The position numbers were made by a program, and so were the translations under genes. The notes beneath the pieces were generated by a model, which saw nothing but the letters and a program-made list of their open reading frames with translations, did no database searches and was not told where the DNA came from. Shown in pieces: positions 44,331 through 64,000 of a stretch of DNA of 64,000 nucleotides. The DNA comes from an uncultured Gammaproteobacteria bacterium (GTDB lineage Bacteria; Patescibacteriota; Patescibacteriia; Magasanikbacterales; GWA2-37-8), in the NCBI GenBank assembly GCA_964511375.1, contig CAZEEW010000001.1, positions 6,512 to 70,511 of the forward strand, written 5' to 3'. How positions within the stretch are numbered: position 1 is the first letter of the stretch; every line of letters starts with the position of its first letter.

Positions 44331-44389
44331 TCCAGTGGTGCGGGAACAACAAGAGAAGATCGTAATTAAAAACATAAAATTTAAGAATT

Positions 44390-44523
44390 TGTATACACTA
44401 GTCTATACAAACTGTGGATAAGTGTGTGCATATTTGTGTATAAATGTGTATAACTTAAAATATTTTGTACAACTTTTTCTCTTAAATTAGCAAAAATAAA
44501 TTTTGTATACACTAGTGTATACA
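44390..44523. repeat. Two copies of a 20-bp palindrome TGTATACACTAGTGTATACA (44504..44523 perfect; 44390..44409 one mismatch) bracketing a DnaA-box TGTGGATAA (44413..44421) in an AT-rich spacer
   Basis: Read directly. Copies are 114 bp apart. Confidence 0.6.
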
Positions 44524-44601
44524 AACACACAAGACTTTTTTGCCTGTTTTTGTTTATTTTTTCTCTTGCTTTAGCTAAAAATAATATAATTTAGTCGACT
44601 C

Positions 44602-53006: not shown

Positions 53007-53186
53007 ATATCTTACTATGGCAACAAAGAGAACTTACCAACCAAAAAAGCGCAAGAGAGCAAAAACTCATGGCTTTAGAGCTAAAATGAAGACTCGACAG
53101 GGCCGTGCTGTTTTAAAGCGCCGTCGAGACAAAGGAAGAAAGAAGCTTACTGTTTCTGACGAAAAGAAGGGTAAACTAACCCGCAA
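53007..53186 (+). CDS. rpmH: 50S ribosomal protein L34 (59 aa, with about 13-aa C-terminal extension)
   Basis: [46 protein letters not shown].... Found by manual translation (below ORF-track cutoff). Confidence 0.8.
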
Positions 53187-53198
53187 AGCTCGCTAAAG

Positions 53199-53226
53199 CA
53201 AACCTTTAACACCCTGAATTCCCAGG
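53199..53226 (+). terminator. Hairpin plus T-run (CACCCTG-aattc-CAGGGTG TTTTTTG) between rpmH and rnpA, a terminator/attenuator
   Basis: Read directly. Confidence 0.6.
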
Positions 53227-53266
53227 GTGTTTTTTGTTGAAAATTGTGGTATAATGGCTTTGTTAT

Positions 53267-53656
53267 ATGTTACAAAAAGACAACCGACTAACTAAAGTTC
53301 GAGATTTTAATCTCTTAATGAAATATGGCTCCTGGATAAACGGCCGCCTTTTTAATGTTAAGGCTCTTGAGTTAGCCAAATTTGAGAACTATTTTCCAAA
53401 AATGGAAGATAAAGATAATTTTAAAAAACAGCTTAGAATAGCCGTAAATGTTGGTGTTAAAGTATCCAAAAGTGCAGTGAAGAGATATCGGCTGAAGCGA
53501 CAGGCGAGCGAAGTGGTTCGGCTGCTTCTTAAAGAAAGAAGTTTAAAAAATGGATATTATATATTGATTAATGCAAAGAGTGATGTGTTGGAAAAAGATT
53601 ATCCAGAAATTAGCGAAGAAATTAAATTATTATTAAAAAAGTCGGGTTTAATATAA
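53267..53656 (+). CDS. rnpA: Ribonuclease P protein component
   Basis: Basic about 120-aa protein at the conserved position after rpmH. The basic motif KRYRLKRQASEVVRLLL resembles the RnpA RNR-type region. Confidence 0.65.
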   Translation: MLQKDNRLTKVRDFNLLMKYGSWINGRLFNVKALELAKFENYFPKMEDKDNFKKQLRIAVNVGVKVSKSAVKRYRLKRQASEVVRLLLKERSLKNGYYILINAKSDVLEKDYPEISEEIKLLLKKSGLI

Positions 53657-53657
53657 C

Positions 53658-53930
53658 ATGGGTTTTGTTGAATTTATAAAGAAGATCATGTATTTACCCA
53701 GAGTTCCAATACTCTGGGTAATTCGTGTGTATCAAAAAACTTTATCTCCTGACCATGGTCCAATGAAAGACATGTTTCCTTATGGTTACTGTAGGTTTCA
53801 TCCAACCTGCAGTCAGTACGGCTACGAAGTAATAAAAAAAAGGGGCCTTATCATCGGCCTCCCAAAAACTATTTGGCGTATTTTACGTTGTAATCCCTGG
53901 AGTAAGGGTGGAGTAGATTTACCCAGGTAA
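53658..53930 (+). CDS. yidD: Membrane protein insertion efficiency factor YidD
   Basis: RxYQ...SP......CRFxPTCSxYG signature. Confidence 0.8.
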   Translation: MGFVEFIKKIMYLPRVPILWVIRVYQKTLSPDHGPMKDMFPYGYCRFHPTCSQYGYEVIKKRGLIIGLPKTIWRILRCNPWSKGGVDLPR

Positions 53931-53934
53931 AAAA

Positions 53935-54159
53935 CTATTCAACAACCTCAATTGTTTTGTTTTTGCTCGTGATACCACTCACGATTTTTATTTTATTTCT
54001 TTTAATTTTAAAGTGCTCTGATAGCAGGTCTATAAGCGCCTCGTTTGCTTTCCCTTCCACTGGAGCAGTAGTGATTTTAATTTTTAAGGTGCCGTCAGCC
54101 ATTTCTCCCGCCACCTCGTTTTTCGATGATCGCGGTAAAACCCTAACCTTTATTTTCAT
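53935..54159 (-). CDS. DUF167/YggU-family small protein
   Basis: 74 aa, pattern ...RV.P.SSKNEV.G...G.LKI...AP.EGKAN.ALI..L..... Confidence 0.55.
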   Translation of the reverse strand: MKIKVRVLPRSSKNEVAGEMADGTLKIKITTAPVEGKANEALIDLLSEHFKIKRNKIKIVSGITSKNKTIEVVE

Positions 54160-54162
54160 AAT

Positions 54163-55002
54163 CTATCCTCTTAGTTTTTTTAGTAACTCCAAATCTTCTT
54201 CCACGCGATCGTGTTCAGTTTCTAAATAAAAGTTGATATTCTTAAGTTTGTCAGAGTTAATCATGGCCCAAAAACCTTTTATGCCTATTTCTCCTTCACC
54301 AATATGCTCGTGACGATCTTTCTTTAGACCGAGGGCGACCTTCGAGTCGTTACAATGGAACATCTTTAAATTGTCTAATCCAATTATATCGTCAAATTTT
54401 TTAAGAGTTTCATTCAGTGCTTCGGCTGAGCGCAAATCATAGCCGCTCGCAAAAGCATGTTGGGTGTCAAAACAAACCCCAACGTTGAATTTTTTCAGAT
54501 CCTTGTGGTGAATGATTTCCGCGATCTCTTCAAATTGATCGCCAATGATTTCCCCGCTACCGGCCGCAATTTCCACCAAAAAATGTGTTTCGCCCTTGTA
54601 ACCAGTTAACATTTCTTTTAATCCCGCCACTAATTTTTCGAGACCAACATCGTGTCCAAGGTCCTTATAACTGCCGAGGTGGGTCATTAGATATTTGGCC
54701 CCGAGCACGGAGGCTCTCTCAAGTTCTTCTCGCACAACTTTAATCGATCCGTGCCTTATACGGTTGTTGCCTGAAGCAAAGTTAATAAAATATGGGGTAT
54801 GAACTACCCATTCAGTCAAATTATTGTCTTCACAATTTTTTTTAAATTCCCGGGCAGTATCTTCGTTTAGGGGCGGAATCCAGCGGCCCTGTGGGGAGCG
54901 GGTGAACATCTGAAACACCTCACACCCCATTTTAGCTGCGTTTAATGGAGCGTTTTGTAGACCACCGGCTATAGAAACGTGTGCACCGAAAAGCATAGAC
55001 AA
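54163..55002 (-). CDS. nfo: Endonuclease IV (AP endonuclease family 2)
   Basis: TIM-barrel Endo IV blocks FGAHVSIAGG, HxxYxINxA and C-terminal His/Asp/Glu metal ligands. Confidence 0.85.
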   Translation of the reverse strand: MSMLFGAHVSIAGGLQNAPLNAAKMGCEVFQMFTRSPQGRWIPPLNEDTAREFKKNCEDNNLTEWVVHTPYFINFASGNNRIRHGSIKVVREELERASVLGAKYLMTHLGSYKDLGHDVGLEKLVAGLKEMLTGYKGETHFLVEIAAGSGEIIGDQFEEIAEIIHHKDLKKFNVGVCFDTQHAFASGYDLRSAEALNETLKKFDDIIGLDNLKMFHCNDSKVALGLKKDRHEHIGEGEIGIKGFWAMINSDKLKNINFYLETEHDRVEEDLELLKKLRG

Positions 55003-55072
55003 AATTTAATATTTTTAGTATAGCAGGAGAAGAACAAAAAATAAATAAGTCCCGCACCGGGACTTGTTTATT

Positions 55073-56491
55073 TTACTTTTTCTTTTTAGTAGTTTTTTTA
55101 GCAGGAGCTTTCGTAGCCTTAGGTTTTTCAATATCAGTTTTTTCTTCCTCCTGTTCCTCGTGGTCATGTCCGTGATCGTGATCACACCCTGGTCCGTGAA
55201 GGTGGGGCTTGAGGTCCAATACCTTTTCTTTTAACATTTCCATCACTTTGCGGTTTTGGATGGCCATAGCTAGAGTGTCGCGAACGTCGTGGCGCTTTAA
55301 GTTTTCAACTACCTGCGGGTCATTATTGTATGAAGCTTTAATTACCTCGCTCTCTACATCAATATCTTCTTCGCTAACTATAATTTTGTTTTCAACGGCC
55401 AGGGCACGGGATACCAAAGCAGCTTTAACGCGGGTCATGGCCCGATCAGCAAAGTCATCGTGGATTTCTTTTTCCGTTTTCTTGATGTCTTGTAAGTACC
55501 TTTCCATTTCAATGCCTCTTTCTTCTAAGCTGTGCTTAAGTTCGTTAAACATCTTGCGCTTTTCTGAATCTACCAAAACATTGGGAATTTCGCCAAAAAC
55601 GCTTTTGGCGATTAAATCTTCAAGCAATGCTGCCTCAATACGCTGCTCTTCTTTGTGGGTGGCTTCGTGTGTAAGGTTTTTCGTAATTAAGTCGCGCAAG
55701 GCCCCAACATCCTTTTGGCCGAGTTTTTTGGCGAAATCATCGTCTAGTTCGGGGTACTCAATCGCGAACACATCGGTTACTTTAACTTTGAAATCCACGT
55801 TTTTACCAGCCAGATGCTTTTGGTAGTGGGTATCAGGGAACATTAGATTAAATTCTTTCTCTTGGTCTTTTTCTAATCCAACTAATTGGTCAGCAAATCC
55901 AGGAATGTAGTGGTCTTCACTTAAGTACACCTGGTGTTTTGGGGCCTGACCGCCCTCAACCGGTACTTTGTCGATAAACATGTTCATGTCAACGACAACC
56001 TTATCCTCTTTTTTAGCCGGACCAGCCTTCACTACCTCCTTGGCTTGCATTTTGCGCAAGTCGTTCATTAGCTTGTCCACCTCTTTGTCTTCAACAACGA
56101 CTTCTTTTTTGTCTACTTTAATTGTGGTTAATTCTGGTAATTTTACCTCTGGCAAAAGCGCAACCTTGGCTTTAAAGACAAAATCATTGCCGGGAGCGGC
56201 CTTTAAAATAGTAATTTCCGGCATGCCAACGGTTGCTAGCTTTTCAGTTTGTAATACGTTTGTAAAATAGGTTTCCACAATCCTCTGCATTGCTTCCTCA
56301 AGAATCTTAATTTCGCCCAACTGCTGTTTTACAATTTCGTAAGGAGCCTTACCTGGTCGGAAGCCATGAATAGCGGCTCGTTCGGACAACCTTCCGGCTG
56401 CGCGCTCCATTTCTTTTTGGTAATCACTAGGCTGAACGGTAATGGTAAGCTCTACTTCGCCGTGTTCAAGATTTTTTCTTTCATGTGTCAT
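55073..56491 (-). CDS. tig: Trigger factor with His-rich/Lys-rich C-terminal tail
   Basis: N-terminal ribosome-binding motif region (GFRPGKAP), PPIase-like middle, C-terminal arm. Tail CDHDHGHDHEEQEEE...KKTTKKKK. Confidence 0.85.
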   Translation of the reverse strand: MTHERKNLEHGEVELTITVQPSDYQKEMERAAGRLSERAAIHGFRPGKAPYEIVKQQLGEIKILEEAMQRIVETYFTNVLQTEKLATVGMPEITILKAAPGNDFVFKAKVALLPEVKLPELTTIKVDKKEVVVEDKEVDKLMNDLRKMQAKEVVKAGPAKKEDKVVVDMNMFIDKVPVEGGQAPKHQVYLSEDHYIPGFADQLVGLEKDQEKEFNLMFPDTHYQKHLAGKNVDFKVKVTDVFAIEYPELDDDFAKKLGQKDVGALRDLITKNLTHEATHKEEQRIEAALLEDLIAKSVFGEIPNVLVDSEKRKMFNELKHSLEERGIEMERYLQDIKKTEKEIHDDFADRAMTRVKAALVSRALAVENKIIVSEEDIDVESEVIKASYNNDPQVVENLKRHDVRDTLAMAIQNRKVMEMLKEKVLDLKPHLHGPGCDHDHGHDHEEQEEEKTDIEKPKATKAPAKKTTKKKK

Positions 56492-56573
56492 ATTTCTATT
56501 ACAAATTATTTTTTTGAATTATTTGTTCGCCAAGTTTAACCTAATTTGGCCAAAAAGTCAACCGTAAGGGCCT

Positions 56574-57839
56574 CTAGCGGCGTTTAAGGATTACCAGTCC
56601 TTCAATGTGTGGTGTGCGGGGGAAGAAGTTGTATAGCCGGGAAAACACAATATTATACTTCTCCTTAAGCAGACGAACATCTCGGGCGTGGGTGGCGAGG
56701 TCACAAGAAAGGTAGATAATTTTTTTTGGTTTTACGCTTAATAATCGCTTGGTTACCTCTTCGTGTAAACCCGCCCGGGGTGGGTCTAAAAAGACAGTCT
56801 GGTCTTCCTTAATTAATTCAGTAATTTCTTCAGTTGGTCGGCAGACCGCCTCAAAATTATTGAGCTTGTTCAAGTCAATGTTTTCTTTGGCCAATTCAAT
56901 TGCTTCAACATTGCTGTCTACCAAGGTACAGCTTTTAATTTTGGCTGACAAAGGAATAGAAATCGATCCGACGCCAGAATACAAGTCTAAAGCCTCCGAA
57001 TCTGGTTCAAGATATTTTTTCATATCTTCCAGGGCCGCTTCAAACACCGGAGAATTAACTTGGAAGAAACTTAAGTTACCAAACTTTAATTTCGTGCCTT
57101 TAATTTTACTTATTAAATAGTCTTGCCCTTGAGAATAAAGTAGTTCGGTTGGAACACTGGCTGGGCTTTTGTGGGTTGAATAGTATAACTGAAAACCAAG
57201 ACAGTTTTTATCCAAAGCTGGGTAAGAACTAAATTCCAGTTTGTCTTTAATGAACATTGCTAAGGCGACCTTACCGTCTGAAGTAGAGCGACCGATTAAA
57301 GACTTTAAACTTCGAATTGGAATCTTAACTTCATTTATCCAATCTAATACCACCCGGGCAGCTTGGTTTATTTCACGGCTCGCCAAAATACACTCGAGTA
57401 TTTGAAAACGAAATTTTTTACCACGTTCAAAAAAAGCCAGGCTAATTTTACCACTATTTTCTGCAAAACTATATTCAATCTTATTGCGGTAATGGTATGG
57501 TTCCGTGTCGTGGACAATATCTAGTTGCAAATCCAAGTCACCAATTTTTTTATAGGTTTCTTCTGCTATTTTTACCTTCCAATCATTTTCTGCCTCGTAC
57601 GACAATATTTGCCACGGGCTGCAAGACAAAAAGTGTTTCTCAATTGGATCAATCCTCTCGGGTGATTTTTCTAAAACCCGCTCTGCAATCCCGTCCCAGT
57701 GTGTCTTGCTCTTTTTGGTAATGTTTACTTCTACTGTTTCGCCCGGTAAAGCATTCCAAACAAAAACAACCTGGCCAGAAGCGGCTCTGCCCAAAGCCTG
57801 TCCACCAAATACTAATTTTTCGATTCTAATTGTTTCCAT
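56574..57839 (-). CDS. RumA/RlmD-type 23S rRNA (uracil-C5)-methyltransferase (TRAM + class I SAM MTase)
   Basis: N-terminal TRAM-like beta domain. SAM motif LDLYSGVGSISIPL. DPPRAGL motif IV. Confidence 0.7.
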   Translation of the reverse strand: METIRIEKLVFGGQALGRAASGQVVFVWNALPGETVEVNITKKSKTHWDGIAERVLEKSPERIDPIEKHFLSCSPWQILSYEAENDWKVKIAEETYKKIGDLDLQLDIVHDTEPYHYRNKIEYSFAENSGKISLAFFERGKKFRFQILECILASREINQAARVVLDWINEVKIPIRSLKSLIGRSTSDGKVALAMFIKDKLEFSSYPALDKNCLGFQLYYSTHKSPASVPTELLYSQGQDYLISKIKGTKLKFGNLSFFQVNSPVFEAALEDMKKYLEPDSEALDLYSGVGSISIPLSAKIKSCTLVDSNVEAIELAKENIDLNKLNNFEAVCRPTEEITELIKEDQTVFLDPPRAGLHEEVTKRLLSVKPKKIIYLSCDLATHARDVRLLKEKYNIVFSRLYNFFPRTPHIEGLVILKRR

Positions 57840-57857
57840 AGTGGGTAAGTTATATCA

Positions 57858-57890
57858 CAAAAATAAACCACCGGCAACCGCCGGTGGTTT
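57858..57890 (-). terminator. Terminator hairpin CCACCGGC-aacc-GCCGGTGG with T-run on the minus strand, after gene 57903..58223
   Basis: 8-bp GC stem read directly. Confidence 0.6.
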
Positions 57891-57902
57891 AGAAGAATTG
57901 GA

Positions 57903-58223
57903 TTAGGAATCAAGAGTTTTTCCGAAAAGTCGCTGGGCAAAAGAGCTTAGATGATTTAACAAATCGCGTAGAGCGACTGCGTCGTAATTTTTGTATTCGT
58001 TGCCCAGGGCTTCTTGCAACGCCCGATATCTTATCGCCTCTTTAATGCTGTTTGTGAGGACCACAAGTTCATTCCAGGCCTTTTCTCTGTTTGCTTCAGA
58101 GGCGTGAGTGATTCTTTCTTCAATCGTCTTGCTTTGAGCCAAAATTTCTGTCGGACTCGGTCTTTCGGTAGTCGCACCTCTTTGATCTGCCGGGGATAAC
58201 CGCCTCCTTCTTTCAAAACTCAT
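57903..58223 (-). CDS. Hypothetical protein (106 aa)
   Basis: ORF only. Co-oriented 4 nt downstream of hppA. Confidence 0.35.
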
Positions 58224-58227
58224 ATGA

Positions 58228-60213
58228 TTACTTTAAAAGTAAACCAACAATGAGGAGAGCAACGATGTTGGCAACTTTGATCATTGGGTTAATCGCTGGG
58301 CCAGCAGTGTCCTTGTATGGATCGCCAACAGTGTCGCCGGTTACTGCAGCCTGGTGAGCAAAGGAGCCCTTGCCACCATAGTTGCCTTTTTCAATGAATT
58401 TTTTGGCATTGTCCCAAGCGCCACCACCGGTCGTCATGGAAATAGCAACAAACAAACCAGTAATAATTGTACCAAGCAACATACCGCCCAAAGCCTCTAG
58501 ACCCAAGATCCAACCAACTAAAATCGGTAAGGCGACTGGGATGAGGGCGGGAAGAATCATTTGTGAGATCGCACCTTTAGTAACAATGTCGACAGCTTTG
58601 CTATAGTCAGGTTTAGCTTGGCCTTCCATAATGCCCTTAATTTCTCGGAATTGACGGCGAACTTCCTCAACAACCTTACCGGCTACTTTACCAACTGATT
58701 CCATTAACATGGAACCAAACCAGTATGGGAGCAGGCCGCCAATAAATAGACCGGCTAAAACCTTTGGATCATTGATTAAGAATTGAATTGACTCAGGAAT
58801 TTTGTGAGTAAAATCAGCAAACAAAACCAGAGAGGCTAAACCGGCCGAAGCAATGGCATAACCTTTAGTAACCGCCTTAGTAGTGTTGCCAACGGCATCT
58901 AATTGGTCTGTAACGTCACGAACATTTTCTGGTAATTCACTCATCTCGGCAATACCACCAGCATTGTCGGTGATTGGGCCGTAGGCATCAATCGTTACAA
59001 TAATACCGGTCAAAGACAACATGCTCATGGCAGCAATCGCGACACCATATAAACCCGCCAACCAGTAAGCCCCTAGAATAGCGGCCACAATAAAGATTAC
59101 TGGTAAAGCTGTTGAGCGCATCGACAAAGCTAGCCCAGAAATGATGTTGGTAGCATGGCCAGTCTCTGAAGCTTTGGCAACATTTTTAATTGGGCTATAT
59201 TTTGTTGAGGTATAAAATTCTGTAATCCAAACCATTACTGCTGTGAGGACTAGGCCAATAACGCTAGTTAAGAAAACACGTGTTACATCTAGCCCGGGAA
59301 TATTGCCAACTAACCAACGAGTAATCGGATAAAAGGCAATCAAAGCTAGAACACCACTCGCAACCAATCCTTTGTACAAAGCGTTCATTATGTTTCCAGA
59401 TTTTCCAAGTCTTACAAAAAAAGTGCCAAGAATAGAGGCGATAATAGAAACACCACCCAAAACCATTGGATAAATTACAGCATTAGCATTGCCGACAAAA
59501 AGTAAACCACCCAAAACCATGGCTGCAACTGCTGTTACAGCATAGGTTTCGAAAAGGTCAGCCGCCATACCAGCACAGTCGCCAACGTTGTCGCCAACAT
59601 TGTCGGCAATTACGGCTGGGTTACGTGGATCGTCTTCGGGGATGCCTTTTTCAACTTTTCCAACGAGATCAGCGCCAACGTCAGCGGCTTTGGTAAAGAT
59701 GCCGCCGCCGATACGAGCAAACACGGAAATTAAACTGCCACCAAAACCTAGACCAACCAAGGCAGATAAATCATTAGTTAATAGATAAAAACCAGATACA
59801 CCAAATAGACCAAGACCAACTACTAGTAAACCAGTAATTGATCCTCCCTTTACCGCCATGCCCAAAGCTTCCTTCATTCCCTTTTTGGCGGCCTCAGCCG
59901 TTCGGATGTTGGCGCGAACAGAAATGCTCATGCCAATAATACCGGCCAAACCAGAAAACACTGCACCAACCAAGAAACCAAGAGCGGTTACCCAGTCAAT
60001 AAAGATGCCGAGGAGAATGAAAATCACAACTGCTACCACGGAAATGGTTTTGTACTGACGTCCGAGATAGGCTTTGGCGCCATCTTGAATCGCACGGGCA
60101 ATTGCCTGCATACGATCATCGCCGGCCGGCTGTTTGTTGATCCAAAGAGCCAATACCACGCCATAAATTACGGCGATGAGGGCCGGGACAAGTGCTAAAA
60201 GGAGCACGGTCAT
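58228..60213 (-). CDS. hppA: Membrane-bound proton/sodium-translocating pyrophosphatase
   Basis: [20 protein letters not shown] and [19 protein letters not shown] signatures. About 16 TM helices. Confidence 0.9.
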
Positions 60214-60294
60214 ACTTAGATAAATTAAAAATTAATTAACATAGTCAGGTTGACTGGTCTATATAATATGTTAGAATAAGGGACACGTCAAGCT

Positions 60295-61617
60295 ATGAAA
60301 TATAAAATAATCCTGCGGTTTTTGCGACTTTTGGTGTATGTTAAGCGATTTGTCTGGTGGGTTGGAGGCGCTCTGTACTTTATTTTGAAGACTCTTTTCT
60401 CCCCTGTCTGGCGGGCCGTGGCTTTTGTTTACTACAAATTAAGCTATCTTCTTAAAAAGGGTGGGTTAAACAAATCTAGTTATTGGTTACTTGGGCGCAA
60501 GGTTTTGCAAGTCATTTCCTTGGCCTTTTTTCTTCTAATCGTTGTTCCCCAGACCAAGCTTTATTCCCGGAAAGATATTATTATCCCCGGCCAAAAAACT
60601 ATTGCCTATGCCTTGTCCCAAACCGAGCAAGATTTTAGTTTGGAAGAGGTGTATGCGGAGGAGCTGGCCGAAAGCGCAGAGGTTTCTCCTTGGCGCGAAG
60701 CAGTAGTAATAGACGAAAATTATTACTCCGGTAGCGGTCCGTCATATATTGACCAAGAACTGGGCGGTATTATGGCTGGCGGAATGGCTTTAAACAAACC
60801 GACGATCCTGCCAGGAGCTTCGGTTTCCAGCCGTCGAGACAAGGTTATTGAATATACTATTGAACAAGGCGACTCTTTAAGCTCAATCGCCTTTCATTAT
60901 GGTGTGAGTGTCGCAACAATCATGTGGGAAAACAATCTAACCTTACGTTCTCTCTTAAAGCCAGGTACGGTTTTACGTATCCCACCCTCCACCGGACTAA
61001 TGCACACGGTTAAGCGCGGAGATACACTAAATAAAATTGCCAATGCTTACGAGGCCAAAGTGGAAGATATTATTAAGTTTAACAAACTAAAAGATGACGG
61101 TAGTGACTTGGTGGCTGGCGAAAAGATCATGATTCCGAATGGCATTCGGCCAGAACAACGAGCAGTTGCCTCTATCCCGCGCAGCAATACAGTTGCTAGA
61201 ACCCCAGTTTCTGTTCCACCTTCTTCGCGTAGCACCCCTTCGGTTAGTGGTTTTGTTTGGCCATCGGCTGCTCGCATGATTACCCAGTATTATAACTGGA
61301 AACACCACGCGATTGATTTAGCTGGTCCAATGAATACAGCTAACTATGCAGCGAAAGCCGGTACGGTTGAAAAAGCGCAGTGTGGTTGGAATAGCGGTTA
61401 TGGTTGTTATATCATTATTAACCACGGTGGTGGGGTAAAGACACTTTATGGCCACCACAACAAACTCTTAGTGTCCCCAGGAGATTATGTTGAGGCTGGC
61501 CAAACCATCGGTCTCATGGGGAACACCGGTAAGGTTTACGGTAGAACTGGTATCCACCTACACTTTGAAATTCAAATCAATGGTGTTCGTGTGAACCCGT
61601 TGGGTTATGTAAAATAA
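60295..61617 (+). CDS. Membrane-anchored peptidoglycan hydrolase with two LysM domains and a C-terminal M23 (LytM) peptidase domain
   Basis: Two LysM blocks (YTIEQGDSLSSIA... and HTVKRGDTLNKIA...). M23 HxxxD ... HLHFE motifs. Confidence 0.8.
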   Translation: MKYKIILRFLRLLVYVKRFVWWVGGALYFILKTLFSPVWRAVAFVYYKLSYLLKKGGLNKSSYWLLGRKVLQVISLAFFLLIVVPQTKLYSRKDIIIPGQKTIAYALSQTEQDFSLEEVYAEELAESAEVSPWREAVVIDENYYSGSGPSYIDQELGGIMAGGMALNKPTILPGASVSSRRDKVIEYTIEQGDSLSSIAFHYGVSVATIMWENNLTLRSLLKPGTVLRIPPSTGLMHTVKRGDTLNKIANAYEAKVEDIIKFNKLKDDGSDLVAGEKIMIPNGIRPEQRAVASIPRSNTVARTPVSVPPSSRSTPSVSGFVWPSAARMITQYYNWKHHAIDLAGPMNTANYAAKAGTVEKAQCGWNSGYGCYIIINHGGGVKTLYGHHNKLLVSPGDYVEAGQTIGLMGNTGKVYGRTGIHLHFEIQINGVRVNPLGYVK

Positions 61618-61666
61618 CACTCTTGAAAAGATGGTGAGAATAGTGTATAACATAGCCACAATCAAT

Positions 61667-61738
61667 GGCCTGGTAGCCAAGTAGTAAGGCAGGAGTCTGC
61701 AAAACTCTTATGCGCGGGTGCGATTCCCGCCCAGGCCT
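61667..61738 (+). tRNA. tRNA-Cys (anticodon GCA), U73 discriminator
   Basis: Acceptor GGCCTGG/CCAGGCC, anticodon loop CTGCAAA. Confidence 0.8.
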
Positions 61739-61777
61739 CAGTTTAAAAAACACCCCCCTTACGAGGTGTTTTTTTCT

Positions 61778-62578
61778 TTAACTATTTGGTAGAAGGTTCC
61801 AACAAAGGTTGAATATGGCACGCTGACTGTCTGCAATTTCTTTGCTGCGTATTATTACACCCAGCATGTCTTTGTGGGAGACAATGAAGACATTGTCTCC
61901 GTAGATGTTAATCTCGTTGCTAATTGTCATTTTTTGTCTGTCCACCAGTTTAACAGTTCGTTTTTCTTCAACACTTTTTCCTTTGAAAGACTGGCCCACA
62001 GGCTCATCAGTTAAAATAGCATTAACATGGATATTTTTTTGAACTCTTTTTTTAATATATCCGGGATAATAGCCGTTAAGTGTTTTGACGGCTAGGCTTG
62101 TATCGTTCCATCCACATATTGTTGTGCTTGGTGTTTTAAGCGTGTCTTCCATTATGTTTACTAATCCATCATAACCTTCATAATATTCGACTCTGGGTTT
62201 ATTCCCTTTGTCTAAAGATACTGCTAGTGCCTCAAGTTCTGGTAAGACAGTTTGGGCCTTCTTTACTTTATCTAGAGCCAGTTCAACAATAATCTTTGGG
62301 TCAACGGCAACAAACTGAGTTATTTTTCGCCTGGAATAAGAGGCAACACACCCCTTTTTCATCAGGGACTTAAGAAGAACATAGGCACTTGGGCGCTTAA
62401 TATGTGCCCTTTTTGCTATTTCTGATGCTGGCGCCCCTCCTAGTTCCAGGGCTGCCAGGTAAATTTTAGCTTCGGCAGATTCGAAGCCGATATCCTTTAG
62501 TGTTCTGGTTAGATCCATATTTTTAATACTGTTGTAATTTACAACAACTATTTTAATATTTAACATGCCGGGTGTCAA
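61778..62578 (-). CDS. TrmB-family HTH transcriptional regulator
   Basis: N-terminal wHTH (ESAEAKIYLAALELGGAPASEIAKRAHIKRPSAYVLLKSL) and C-terminal sugar-sensing-type domain. Upstream palindrome GTTGTAA-t-TTACAAC at about 62590..62604 is a likely operator. Confidence 0.65.
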   Translation of the reverse strand: MTPGMLNIKIVVVNYNSIKNMDLTRTLKDIGFESAEAKIYLAALELGGAPASEIAKRAHIKRPSAYVLLKSLMKKGCVASYSRRKITQFVAVDPKIIVELALDKVKKAQTVLPELEALAVSLDKGNKPRVEYYEGYDGLVNIMEDTLKTPSTTICGWNDTSLAVKTLNGYYPGYIKKRVQKNIHVNAILTDEPVGQSFKGKSVEEKRTVKLVDRQKMTISNEINIYGDNVFIVSHKDMLGVIIRSKEIADSQRAIFNLCWNLLPNS

Positions 62579-62663
62579 TAGCCAATTTTATGCTAATTGT
62601 ATTATAAATTTAGAAATATAAATAATTTAAACAGGGACACAATTTCACATGTAGTTGTAATAA

Positions 62664-62692
62664 TTGACAGTAAGGTAAAATTCGAGTATAAT
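62664..62692 (+). promoter_or_regulatory. Perfect consensus sigma70 promoter TTGACA-17-TATAAT
   Basis: Read directly. Transcript would start about 62699 and carry SD AAGGTGG before ATG 62760. Confidence 0.6.
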
Positions 62693-62759
62693 ACTCGGTT
62701 ACGTTTAAGGCGGAAAGACCGCCCGGGAAAGAACAAGTTCTTTGACAAGGTGGGTGGAC

Positions 62760-63062
62760 ATGCGTGAAGAAAACGGACCCTGGAACGGACTGATTTTCCT
62801 GCTTGTGCTGATCGCGCTTGTAATGTATGTAAACAAGCAAGACGACACAACAAAACCCAAGACACAGGCTGCGGCGTCTTGGGACTATGAGCTGGTGTGT
62901 TTGCCGGCCAGAGATAAGGCGCTTTGTGTTGCAAAGATAAGATATGAAAAAGTGCGCAACCTGTTTTCTGTCACCCCAGAAATGTCGGTCGAAGATTTTT
63001 GCACGGAACCTTTCTGTTCGTCTTTACAGACCGTCTTTTGTCCACCAATCTCTCATACTTAA
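62760..63062 (+). CDS. Small single-TM membrane protein with six Cys (101 aa), compositionally atypical (about 48% GC, CTG-rich Leu codons)
   Basis: Start chosen at Met with SD 7 nt upstream (ORF-track frame 62742..63062). TM segment WNGLIFLLVLIALVMYV. Confidence 0.4.
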   Translation: MREENGPWNGLIFLLVLIALVMYVNKQDDTTKPKTQAAASWDYELVCLPARDKALCVAKIRYEKVRNLFSVTPEMSVEDFCTEPFCSSLQTVFCPPISHT

Positions 63063-63149
63063 CCCAGTCCTTATGGGTTGGGTCGCTACAGTACGCGACT
63101 CGACCTCCAGGGCAACTAAACAGTTAGTTTCTCTAGAGGGTCGCGTACT

Positions 63150-63187
63150 GTGATAATAAAAACACTTACCCTTTGGTGAGTGTTTTT
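63150..63187 (+). terminator. Strong rho-independent terminator (ACACTTACC-cttt-GGTGAGTGT plus TTTTTTC), preceded by a complex hairpin region (63063..63145)
   Basis: 9-bp stem including one G:U, plus T-run, read directly. Confidence 0.65.
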
Positions 63188-63227
63188 TCTTGCTAAAAAA
63201 CTTGGAGACGGGTAAAATATCTTCACT

Positions 63228-64000
63228 ATGAAGTTTGTTATTATCGACGGCAATGCCATTATTCATCGTGCTTATCACGCCCTACCTCCTTTGACGACCA
63301 AAGACGGTCGAATGGTGAATGCGGTGTATGGTTTTGCCTCGATGTTGCTCAAAGTTTTGCAAGACCTAAAACCCACCCATCTGGCGGTTGCTTTTGATGT
63401 GGCTGGAAAAACTTTCCGTCACGTTGAATATGATAAGTACAAAGCAACTCGCGTCAAAGCTGACCAAGAGTTATATGACCAAATACCCTTGGTTCATGAA
63501 TTAGTTAGTACCCTTGGTTTTCCGATCTACACTAAAGAAGGTTACGAAGCCGACGATGTAATTGGTACGATCGTGGAGATGTTTAGGGGGGACAAAAACA
63601 AAGACAAAGAGCTGTTTATCGTGACTGGTGACATGGACACCTTGCAATTAATAGATGGTTTTGTGAAAGTATATACCCTAAGGAAAGGCATGAGTGATGT
63701 GGTTATCTACGATCACGATGGTGTTATCGAAAAGTATGGGTTTGGACCAGACCGAGTTGTTGACTACAAAGCTTTGCGCGGAGACACTTCAGACAATATC
63801 CCAGGCGTACCGGGTATTGGTGAAAAGACGGCAACAGAATTAATTCAAAAATACGGGGGTATTGAAGATGTATATAAACAACTTAAAGCTTCTGGATCAA
63901 AGTTAAGAAAAGAAATGAAGGAAGGGGTAATAAAGAAGCTGGAAGAGGGAGAAGAAAGTGCTAAGATGAGCTATCATTTGGCCAAGATCGAGTGTTCGGT
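63228..64000 (+). CDS. polA: DNA polymerase I, N-terminal 5'-3' exonuclease domain (gene continues beyond window end)
   Basis: MKFVIIDGNAIIHRAYHALPPLTT...GFASMLLK...YKATR...EADDVIGT...GDxDxxQL....GIGEKTA. Confidence 0.8.
   Translation, partial: MKFVIIDGNAIIHRAYHALPPLTTKDGRMVNAVYGFASMLLKVLQDLKPTHLAVAFDVAGKTFRHVEYDKYKATRVKADQELYDQIPLVHELVSTLGFPIYTKEGYEADDVIGTIVEMFRGDKNKDKELFIVTGDMDTLQLIDGFVKVYTLRKGMSDVVIYDHDGVIEKYGFGPDRVVDYKALRGDTSDNIPGVPGIGEKTATELIQKYGGIEDVYKQLKASGSKLRKEMKEGVIKKLEEGEESAKMSYHLAKIECS

What the first reader, a model, noticed from the sequence alone, without database searches (positions are those of the whole stretch)
62664..63190. Compositionally foreign promoter-gene-terminator module encoding a 101-aa Cys-containing membrane protein
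A perfect TTGACA-17-TATAAT promoter and a good SD lead into an ORF with about 48% GC and CTG-dominated Leu codons (the rest of the window prefers TTA/CTT). A multi-hairpin 3' region follows, with CAGTACGCGAC...GTCGCGTACTG as an 11-bp long-range stem, then a strong terminator.

The protein has one TM helix and six Cys (CLPARDKALC, C..PFC, FC). This looks like a recently acquired autonomous module: candidates are a small membrane toxin, a bacteriocin-immunity-like protein or a phage remnant. It sits between a TrmB regulator and polA and about 1 kb from tRNA-Cys.
Basis: seen in the sequence. Interest (0 to 1): 0.55.

Follow-up and report, generated by a model that had tools for sequence, protein, structure and literature searches.

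The report
Orphan membrane-protein gene behind a TrmB promoter
A one-of-a-kind 100-residue membrane-protein gene in a Patescibacteria genome is not a self-contained imported module: it sits between a promoter that belongs to the neighbouring TrmB-type regulator and a hairpin-plus-terminator that belongs to the conserved DNA in front of polA.

Summary
The promoter is a perfect TTGACA-17-TATAAT. The ORF spans 62760-63062, with an SD-like AAGGTGG, a 12-bp long-range stem and a terminator. The ORF is GC- and CTG-rich for this genome. Two details are wrong: it has 100 residues (not 101) and five Cys (not six).

The ORF is a true orphan, matching only itself among 5.8 billion protein clusters and 1.84 billion representatives. 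It is absent from the same tRNA-Cys–polA slot in the closest relatives, which carry other genes there. The unit is not autonomous, however.

- **Promoter:** it is the divergent promoter of the adjacent TrmBL2-like regulator. Its operator motifs are conserved in nine other orthologue contigs (seven distinct loci), and unrelated cargo genes, often small membrane proteins, sit behind them.
- **3' end:** the long hairpin and terminator are conserved with compensatory changes in relatives that have different cargo. They belong to the polA-upstream backbone.

Only about 62722-63085 is unique. That stretch shows no excess RNA structure and no Rfam match.

Best reading (about 0.55): a real, regulator-gated, single-pass membrane protein of unknown function in a fast-turnover slot next to a tRNA. 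Main rival (about 0.25): a transcribed but non-coding or decaying insert. Interest is modest.

The parts
61667..61739 (+). tRNA-Cys(GCA). It forms the left border of the variable slot.
   Evidence: ARAGORN and Rfam. The same tRNA precedes the slot in L003, L004 and L006 and in L021.
61745..61774 (.). Hairpin (AAAAAACACC / GGTGTTTTTT) between the convergent tRNA-Cys and the TrmB gene. It is probably a bidirectional terminator.
   Evidence: Inverted repeat I5. An equivalent hairpin follows tRNA-Cys in L004 and L021.
61778..62521 (-). TrmBL2-like regulator of 247 aa: a winged HTH, a long helix and a PLD-like domain. The inferred start is the ATG at 62521. The public gene call, with a 262-aa product, starts upstream at 62566.
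   Evidence: PF01978, E 4.9e-14. AF2 model with pLDDT 93.6. Best solved matches are TrmBL2 5BPD (E 7e-14) and TrmB 3QPH. Homologues are 244-257 aa long.
62530..62546 (.). Perfect palindrome TGTTGTAA-T-TTACAACA between the regulator's -10 box and its ATG. Inferred to be the auto-regulatory operator.
   Evidence: It is the only exact match in the window. Its columns are near-invariant in all 9 aligned orthologue loci.
62550..62578 (-). Promoter of the regulator gene (TTGACA-17-TAAAAT).
   Evidence: 11 of 12 match. Both hexamers are conserved in the alignment.
62654..62669 (+). GTTGTAAnnATTGACA: an operator half-site fused to the -35 box of the cargo promoter.
   Evidence: One exact copy per locus in nine orthologue contigs (seven distinct loci), always on the strand opposite TrmB and 125-143 nt from its ATG.
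62664..62692 (+). Cargo promoter, TTGACA-17-TATAAT.
   Evidence: Homologous promoters stand at the same place in the orthologue loci.
62709..62723 (+). First 5'-UTR hairpin, GGCGG-AAAGA-CCGCC. It is the last stretch still homologous to L017.
   Evidence: The local alignment of window 62642-62721 to L017 scores 43, against 26±3 for shuffles with a maximum of 37. L017 has GACGG...CCGTC, a compensatory change.
62747..62753 (+). SD-like AAGGTGG, 6 nt before the ATG.
   Evidence: Sequence. Neighbouring native genes mostly lack any SD.
62760..63062 (+). Orphan ORF of 100 aa. It has an N-terminal hydrophobic helix (about residues 8-30) and five Cys in the C-terminal 55 residues.
63062..63083 (+). Small hairpin directly after the stop codon.
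   Evidence: MFE fold. A small GC-rich hairpin of unrelated sequence occupies the same place in L012 and L004.
63087..63152 (+). Long three-tier hairpin: an outer stem, a 4-nt 5' bulge, an inner stem and an apical stem-loop. It is conserved backbone, not cargo.
   Evidence: 8 pairs show compensatory changes among only 3 sequences. The architecture is the same in L012 and L004. No second copy was found in the window by sequence search.
63158..63192 (+). Intrinsic terminator: 13-bp stem, 4-nt loop and a U-run.
   Evidence: It is nearly identical in L002/L012 and L004.
63190..63230 (+). polA promoter-like site (TTGCTA-17-TAAAAT) and the polA ATG at 63228. There is no SD.
   Evidence: The last 31 nt before the ATG are identical in the three relatives.

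Best explanation
The window comes from a Patescibacteria (CPR) genome. Between tRNA-Cys and a conserved hairpin/terminator in front of polA lies a small variable slot. In this genome the slot holds a two-gene divergent unit.

- **Regulator:** a TrmBL2-like protein on the minus strand.
- **Cargo:** a gene on the plus strand encoding an orphan 100-residue protein. It has one N-terminal transmembrane helix and a 5-Cys C-terminal domain. Its topology is undetermined.

**Proposed mechanism**
- The regulator dimer binds the perfect palindrome TGTTGTAA-N-TTACAACA over its own 5' end, giving autoregulation.
- It also binds the related GTTGTAA half-site fused to the -35 box of the consensus-strength cargo promoter.
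- The cargo gene would then be silent until the regulator is released.
- The mRNA starts near 62699, carries a short 5' hairpin, is translated from the ATG at 62760 using an SD-like AAGGTGG, and ends at the backbone terminator.

**Shown versus inferred**
- Shown: the sequence features, the conservation of the control region, the covariation of the hairpin, the orphan status and the slot polymorphism.
- Inferred: that the ORF is translated, that the regulator represses it, and that the protein acts in the membrane.

Only about 62722-63085 is specific to this genome. It was probably acquired or exchanged more recently than its flanks.
For: **Transcription signals**
- The promoter is perfect and statistically unusual. 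A terminator is present.

**Coding evidence**
- An ATG ORF of at least 100 codons on the + strand arises in 0.36% of dinucleotide shuffles of the transcribed core.
- An SD-like sequence lies at the correct spacing.
- The 5'UTR plus ORF shows no excess RNA structure (z = -0.7), and Rfam gives no match.
- The hydrophobic helix is the only confident part of the AF2 model.

**Regulator link**
- The neighbour has the PF01978 domain and a TrmBL2-like fold.
- The palindrome and the -35-fused half-site are conserved at fixed positions in all orthologue loci at 51-84% identity.

**Positional analogues**
- The genes behind the same promoter in other loci have strong SD sequences and are often small membrane proteins. 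L017 has two (71 and 64 aa), L019 has four (35-88 aa) and L018 has one (168 aa).

**Turnover**
- Relatives have different slot content.
- Cargo GC exceeds regulator GC in 6 of 8 loci.
Against: - There is no homologue anywhere. Conservation of the reading frame therefore cannot be tested.
- The codon log-odds of 0.035 is at the bottom of the genes' range and below that of one alternative frame.
- If either strand and any start codon are allowed, an ORF this long appears in 5.4% of shuffles.
- Native genes nearby mostly lack an SD, so SD-driven translation in this organism is itself an assumption.
- Regulator binding is inferred from conservation only.
- The AF2 model of the C-terminal domain has low confidence (pLDDT 41-53).
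Confidence: 0.55

Rival explanations
1. The core is transcribed but not translated. On this view the ORF is a chance or decaying reading frame left in the cargo slot of the TrmB unit, either a remnant of an exchanged gene or a non-coding spacer.
For: - The ORF is an orphan in two very large protein searches.
- Codon usage does not distinguish the ORF frame from the other frames.
- Gene callers left the analogous small ORFs of L017 uncalled.
- An ORF of this length occurs in 5.4% of shuffles when both strands and all start codons are allowed.
Against: - For a + strand ATG ORF the shuffle frequency is 0.0036.
- The ORF fills 83% of the unique core and starts 6 nt after an SD-like motif.
- It encodes a clean hydrophobic helix.
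- Cargo genes in other loci are clearly coding, with GGAGG SD sequences.
Confidence: 0.25
2. The promoter-to-terminator unit encodes a roughly 490-nt structured non-coding RNA rather than a protein.
For: - The whole transcript folds with z = -5.1.
- GC is higher than the surroundings, as is often seen for RNA genes in AT-rich genomes.
Against: - All the excess structure lies in the last 130 nt, which is the shared backbone (z = -8.8).
- The 5'UTR plus ORF has z = -0.7 and the ORF alone z = 0.0.
- No Rfam family matches even at E ≤ 10.
Confidence: 0.04
3. The slot is a cassette-exchange site. The conserved long hairpin would act at the DNA level as an attC-like or other hairpin recombination site, and the ORF would be a mobile cassette inserted next to it.
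For: - Three relatives carry three unrelated + strand genes that all end within about 90 nt 5' of the same hairpin (25, 19 and 86 nt).
- The hairpin has a bulged, multi-tier architecture, and its stems covary while the sequence drifts.
- The TrmB unit lies at the 3' end of three different tRNA genes in different genomes.
Against: - The stem bases show no R'' RYYYAAC or R' GTTRRRY boxes (sequence).
- The slot contains no recombinase.
- No att-type direct repeat of the tRNA 3' end exceeds chance in four loci.
- No other copy of the hairpin was found in the window by sequence search.
- The hairpin is followed by an intrinsic terminator and lies in the 3' UTR, so a role in the RNA is simpler.
Confidence: 0.08

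Closest known systems
TrmB/TrmBL2-family regulators with a divergently transcribed target gene (archaeal TrmB, 3QPH; TrmBL2, 5BPD)
   Same: - The neighbouring protein has the PF01978 winged HTH.
- Its fold is TrmBL2-like: wHTH, a long helix and a PLD-like domain.
- A palindromic site sits over its own promoter.
   Different: - The protein is bacterial (Patescibacteria) and has no sugar-binding end domain.
- The palindrome TGTTGTAA-N-TTACAACA is clade-specific.
- The gene behind the divergent promoter differs between orthologous loci.
- More distant homologues (36-38% identity) are paired with glnA and lack this palindrome.
Small single-pass membrane proteins or small membrane toxins under a tightly repressed strong promoter
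   Same: - The protein is short, with one hydrophobic helix.
- The promoter has consensus strength and is overlapped by an operator-like site.
   Different: - At 100 aa it is longer than typical type I toxins.
- No antisense promoter was found on the opposite strand.
- No family match exists.
- Toxicity is untested.
tRNA-proximal genomic islets
   Same: - The variable content lies immediately 3' of a tRNA gene.
- Its composition is atypical.
- It differs between close relatives.
   Different: - There is no integrase and no att duplication.
- The slot is only about 1.5 kb.
Integron attC hairpins
   Same: The hairpin is an imperfect multi-tier structure at the 3' end of exchangeable genes. Its structure is conserved more than its sequence.
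   Different: - It lacks the R'/R'' core sites.
- The bulge is one-sided.
- No IntI was seen.
- There is a single site rather than an array.

Membership tests
Sigma-70-type promoter | -35 TTGACA and -10 TATAAT hexamers separated by 16-18 nt | tested here: met
   12 of 12 match with a 17-nt spacer at 62664-62692. Two perfect sites occur in the window against 0.04 expected. A promoter stands at the same position in orthologous loci.
Intrinsic (Rho-independent) terminator | A GC-containing stem-loop followed directly by a U-run | tested here: met
   13-bp stem at 63158-63187 followed by TTTTTTCTT. The simple consensus scan did not list it.
TrmB family regulator (the neighbouring gene) | N-terminal TrmB-type winged HTH (PF01978) | tested here: met
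   E 4.9e-14, 52.4 bits against a cut-off of 25.6.
TrmB family regulator (the neighbouring gene) | Whole-protein fold: wHTH, a dimerisation helix and a PLD-like domain | tested here: met
   AF2 pLDDT 93.6. Foldseek top hits are TrmBL2 5BPD/5BQT (E about 1e-13) and TrmB 3QPH (E 5e-10). TM-score is about 0.43 because the domain orientations differ.
TrmB family regulator (the neighbouring gene) | C-terminal sugar-binding domain of sugar-sensing TrmB | tested here: not met
   The protein has only 247 aa. NCBIfam TrmB/TrmBL1 equivalogs match the N-terminus only and score far below their cut-offs. The architecture is that of TrmBL2.
Any described protein family (the 100-aa ORF) | Significant profile or sequence match | tested here: not met
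   Pfam, NCBIfam and PADLOC gave 0 families. The 5.8-billion-cluster and 1.84-billion-representative searches returned only the protein itself. The single extra hit, P0002, is a tandem-repeat artefact.
Described RNA families (Rfam 15) | Covariance-model match at or near the gathering score | tested here: not met
   Nothing was found in 62550-63260 apart from chance-level hits at E > 3. The window yielded only tRNAs at gathering score. The relatives' loci yielded nothing relevant.
Integron gene cassette / attC | R'' RYYYAAC and R' GTTRRRY core sites at the base of the hairpin | tested here: not met
   The stem bases read ACAGTACGCGAC / GTCGCGTACTGT in the window and CTTCTCGG / CCGAGAAG in L004.
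Integron gene cassette / attC | An integron integrase nearby | not tested
   The slot and the 20-kb locus L001 show none among the called genes. The whole genome was not available.
tRNA-integrating genomic island | Location at the 3' end of a tRNA gene | tested here: met
   The window and L021 lie next to tRNA-Cys, L018 next to tRNA-Gly(ccc) and L019 next to tRNA-Arg(ccg). In each case the tRNA is convergent with the regulator gene.
tRNA-integrating genomic island | An integrase gene and a direct repeat of the tRNA 3' end at the far border | tested here: not met
   The slot holds only the regulator and the ORF. The best repeats of the tRNA 3' end are no better than in shuffled sequence in the window, L004, L018 and L019.
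Type I toxin-antitoxin (small membrane toxin plus antisense RNA) | An antisense RNA gene overlapping the toxin mRNA | tested here: inconclusive
   No consensus-like promoter lies on the minus strand between 62700 and 63400. A minus-strand terminator-like hairpin lies at 62883-62856. Weak promoters would be missed.

The most novel reading that the evidence does not exclude
In one Patescibacteria clade, the TrmBL2-like regulator, its operator/promoter region and a short 5' hairpin may form a portable 'expression platform'. It sits next to tRNA genes, and unrelated cargo genes, often tiny membrane proteins of higher GC, are repeatedly exchanged behind it without any integrase. In this genus the covarying hairpin in front of polA would mark the far junction of that exchange and could be a DNA-level recombination site.
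Probability: 0.12. Interest if true: 0.65.

Novelty: new member of a known kind. Interest (0 to 1): 0.33.

Why it matters
On its own this is one more orphan small membrane protein in a CPR genome, which is common and of limited weight.

The re-drawn anatomy is more useful. It gives a testable regulator–operator–target assignment in a phylum where almost no transcriptional regulation has been characterised. It also shows that the same regulator and promoter drive different genes in different lineages, which points to rapid turnover of small membrane or surface proteins next to tRNA genes. In episymbiotic bacteria such proteins are plausible host-interaction factors.

The covarying hairpin upstream of polA is a small structured element that matches no Rfam 15 family.

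Tried and rejected
- **Known RNA gene (RNase P RNA, tmRNA, large ncRNA):** rejected. Rfam at gathering score and at E ≤ 10, and ARAGORN, found nothing. The ORF region has no excess folding.
- **Distant protein homology:** none. The only extra hit, P0002, is a 52-residue tandem-repeat protein whose score is inflated by the repeats.
- **Phage or defence origin:** no match in INPHARED tblastn, IMG/VR or PADLOC. The single viral hit to the palindrome (L028) lies inside a repetitive coding region with no TrmB nearby, so it is chance.
- **Scan of genome contigs with the TrmB protein:** found nothing. The polA scan gave six relatives.
- **Metagenome scan with the terminator 19-mer:** gave nine loci, of which only L012 is a true relative.
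- **Homology between the ORF and cargo ORFs of other TrmB loci:** none.
- **att-type repeats of tRNA 3' ends:** none above chance. A 9 of 11 match, CCCAGGCCTCA against CCCAGTCCTTA at 63063, is post hoc and weak.
- **Hairpin as a dispersed repeat (REP/MITE):** no other copy in the window or the loci.
- **13-nt inverted repeat pairing the SD/start region (62748-62760) with the ORF's 3' end (63039-63051):** noted, but at chance level for this region.
- **AF2 on the single ORF sequence:** uninformative beyond the helix.
- **Literature:** no paper holds both 'TrmB' and 'Patescibacteria'.

Full report
**What is at the coordinates.** The promoter is real and unusual. TTGACA-17-TATAAT at 62664-62692 matches 12 of 12. 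It is one of two perfect sites in the window, where shuffles give 0.04. Transcription should start near 62699. AAGGTGG (62747-62753) lies 6 nt before the ATG at 62760, and the ORF runs to 63062.

The product has 100 residues, not 101. It has five cysteines (47, 56, 81, 86, 94), not six. Three hairpins follow the stop codon:
- a small one at 63062-63083;
- a terminator at 63158-63187 with a U-run.

**Composition.** The window has 41.0% GC. The ORF has 46.5% GC and 49.5% GC3. The 46 long ORFs average 41.1±2.3% and 39.0±3.6%. CTG supplies 5 of 10 Leu codons against 9.7% elsewhere. The shift is real but modest, and the ORF is short. The codon log-odds of the ORF frame (0.035 against 0.24±0.07) is no better than that of another frame. 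Composition therefore fits foreign origin and non-coding sequence equally well.

**RNA or protein.** No Rfam family matches, either at gathering score or at E ≤ 10. ARAGORN finds no tmRNA. The whole transcript folds with z = -5.1. All of that excess lies in the last 130 nt (z = -8.8). The 5'UTR plus ORF has z = -0.7 and the ORF alone has z = 0.0.

An ATG ORF of at least 100 codons on the + strand arises in 0.36% of dinucleotide shuffles of the transcribed core. Allowing either strand and any start codon, the figure is 5.4%. The AF2 single-sequence model is poor (pLDDT 56) apart from a confident helix at residues 8-30. I read this as a probable but unproven protein-coding gene.

**Orphan status.** The word-indexed search of 5.8 billion clusters returned only the protein itself, from one 136-kb NCBI contig and a Logan assembly. 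The exhaustive HMMER search of 1.84 billion representatives returned the protein itself plus one tandem-repeat artefact. Pfam, NCBIfam, PADLOC, phage genomes and viral contigs gave nothing. No fetched locus and no other part of the window encodes a relative.

**Organism and slot.** The polA relatives are Patescibacteria MAGs. In the two closest relatives the flanks are syntenic: H+-PPase, an M23/LysM peptidase and tRNA-Cys on one side, polA on the other. These relatives are L004 (83% polA identity) and L002, which matches the metagenome contig L012 where they overlap (85%). The interval between the flanks differs in every genome.

| Genome | Content of the tRNA-Cys–polA interval |
|---|---|
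| Window | TrmB gene (–) plus the ORF (+) |
| L004 | A 57% GC gene for a 223-aa multi-pass membrane protein; no TrmB |
| L012 | The end of a 63% GC ORF |
| L003 | About 950 bp of other sequence |
| L006 | ftsH |

The module is therefore not ancestral to the group.

**The 3' end is backbone, not module.** From the long hairpin onward, the window, L012 and L004 are homologous. The terminator and the polA promoter region are nearly identical. The hairpin keeps its architecture while its stems change. Eight pairs carry compensatory double changes among only three sequences, for example GTACGCGAC/GTCGCGTAC against GTACACAGC/GCTGTGTAC against CTTCTCGG/CCGAGAAG. No second copy was found in the window by sequence search.

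Whatever gene occupies the slot uses this pre-existing hairpin and terminator. I favour a role in the RNA, as a 3'-end stabiliser or an insulator before polA. A DNA-level role at the junction of exchange is not excluded. The attC core sites are absent, however, and no recombinase is present.

**The 5' end belongs to the regulator.** The neighbouring 247-aa protein has the PF01978 domain. Modelled with 40 homologues, it reaches pLDDT 93.6 and matches TrmBL2 (5BPD, E 7e-14) and TrmB (3QPH) over its whole length.

Its orthologues at 51-84% identity were fetched with their flanks. All share one control region:
- a near-invariant palindrome TGTTGTAA-N-TTACAACA between the regulator's own -10 box and its ATG (window 62530-62546, the only exact match in the window);
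- GTTGTAAnnATTGAC(A), 125-143 nt away on the other strand and fused to the -35 box of a strong divergent promoter (window 62654-62669). There is one exact copy per locus in nine orthologue contigs, which represent seven distinct loci. L018 has a variant form.

Window-to-L017 homology continues to 62721, through the first 5'-UTR hairpin, which shows a compensatory change. The 'perfect promoter' is therefore the regulator's divergent promoter. The simplest mechanism is repression, plus autorepression, by the TrmBL2-like dimer. This is an inference from conservation, not a measurement.

**Cargo behind that promoter differs from locus to locus.**

| Locus | Cargo |
|---|---|
| Window | This ORF |
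| L017 (regulator 76% identical) | Two uncalled ORFs of 71 aa (2 TM) and 64 aa (1 TM, 3 Cys) |
| L019/L020 | Four hydrophobic peptides of 35-88 aa |
| L018 | A 168-aa tail-anchored protein |
| L022-24 | A 112-aa protein with an RNA-polymerase alpha-CTD-like domain |
| L025-27 | Larger soluble proteins |

None resembles the window ORF. Cargo GC exceeds regulator GC in 6 of 8 loci. The positional analogues support the ORF as a genuine, translated cargo gene. They also suggest that cargo is replaced faster than the regulator diverges.

**What is unique here.** After subtracting the regulator's control region on the left and the polA backbone on the right, only about 62722-63085 (48.1% GC) is specific to this genome. 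The ORF fills 83% of it.

**tRNA association.** The regulator's 3' end abuts the 3' end of a convergent tRNA gene in the window and L021 (tRNA-Cys), in L018 (tRNA-Gly-ccc) and in L019 (tRNA-Arg-ccg). That makes three different tRNAs in about eight independent contexts, which is more than chance adjacency would suggest. No integrase lies in the slot. No att-type repeat of the tRNA 3' end exceeds the shuffle level. I record this as a lead for an islet-like origin, not as a demonstrated mechanism.

**Verdict.**
There is a young or exchangeable, compositionally atypical orphan gene, but it is not an autonomous promoter-gene-terminator module.
- Best explanation (0.55): a TrmBL2-like-regulated orphan single-pass membrane protein in a variable tRNA-proximal slot.
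- Rivals: a transcribed non-coding or decaying insert (0.25), a cassette or hairpin recombination site (0.08), and a structured ncRNA (0.04).
- Novelty: a new member of a known kind.
- Interest: 0.33.

Noticed in passing
window 53017-63230 (starts of 12 called genes): Native genes here almost never have a Shine-Dalgarno sequence. Several have a -10-like box (TATAAT, TAAAAT, TAATAT) ending only 4-11 nt before the ATG, including polA at 63228. This suggests widespread leaderless or very short-leader mRNAs. The orphan ORF, with its 60-nt leader and AAGGTGG, is the exception.
   Followed up: partly
window 61667-61778; L018 4738-4867; L019 3467-3582; L021 860-933: The TrmBL2-like regulator gene ends 38-55 nt from the 3' end of a convergent tRNA gene in four loci. 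Three different tRNAs are involved: Cys, Gly-ccc and Arg-ccg. There is no integrase and no att repeat.
   Followed up: partly
window 63087-63152; L012 4506-4571; L004 3854-3919: A long bulged hairpin lies just upstream of the polA terminator and promoter. It shows 8 covarying pairs among three genomes and matches no Rfam family. It could be a small uncharacterised structured element.
   Followed up: partly
window 44388-44411 and 44502-44525: Two copies of a 24-nt sequence that is itself palindromic (TTTGTATACACTAGT[C/G]TATACAAA) lie 114 nt apart. They look like paired operator sites.
   Followed up: no
window 61778-62578: The public gene call for the regulator starts at 62566 and gives 262 aa. 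Homologue lengths, the promoter and the operator position indicate the ATG at 62521, giving 247 aa.
   Followed up: yes
L029 888-3244 and the P0015 locus: More distant homologues of the regulator (36-38% identity) are instead divergently paired with glutamine synthetase, next to gatCA. They lack the palindrome. This suggests a nitrogen-related role for that branch.
   Followed up: partly
L004 (CAZRZQ010000015.1): The contig is deposited as an 'uncultured Gammaproteobacteria' MAG. It is syntenic with this Patescibacteria window and 83% identical in polA, so it is probably mis-binned.
   Followed up: no
L017 188-1184 (minus strand): About 1 kb has no called gene, yet it contains two SD-preceded small membrane ORFs (71 and 64 aa) behind the conserved promoter. 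Small cargo genes of this unit are missed by gene callers.
   Followed up: partly
window 62748-62760 and 63039-63051: A 13-nt stretch covering the SD and start codon is 85% complementary to the ORF's 3' end, and the two pair in the MFE fold. This could be a translation-masking interaction or chance.
   Followed up: no
L018 670-4738: Two TrmB paralogues flank small unknown genes and an AAA_23/SMC_N-like ATPase. A seven-tRNA cluster, a GIY-YIG gene and an HTH_3 gene lie nearby. The neighbourhood looks like a mobile or defence-type island.
   Followed up: no
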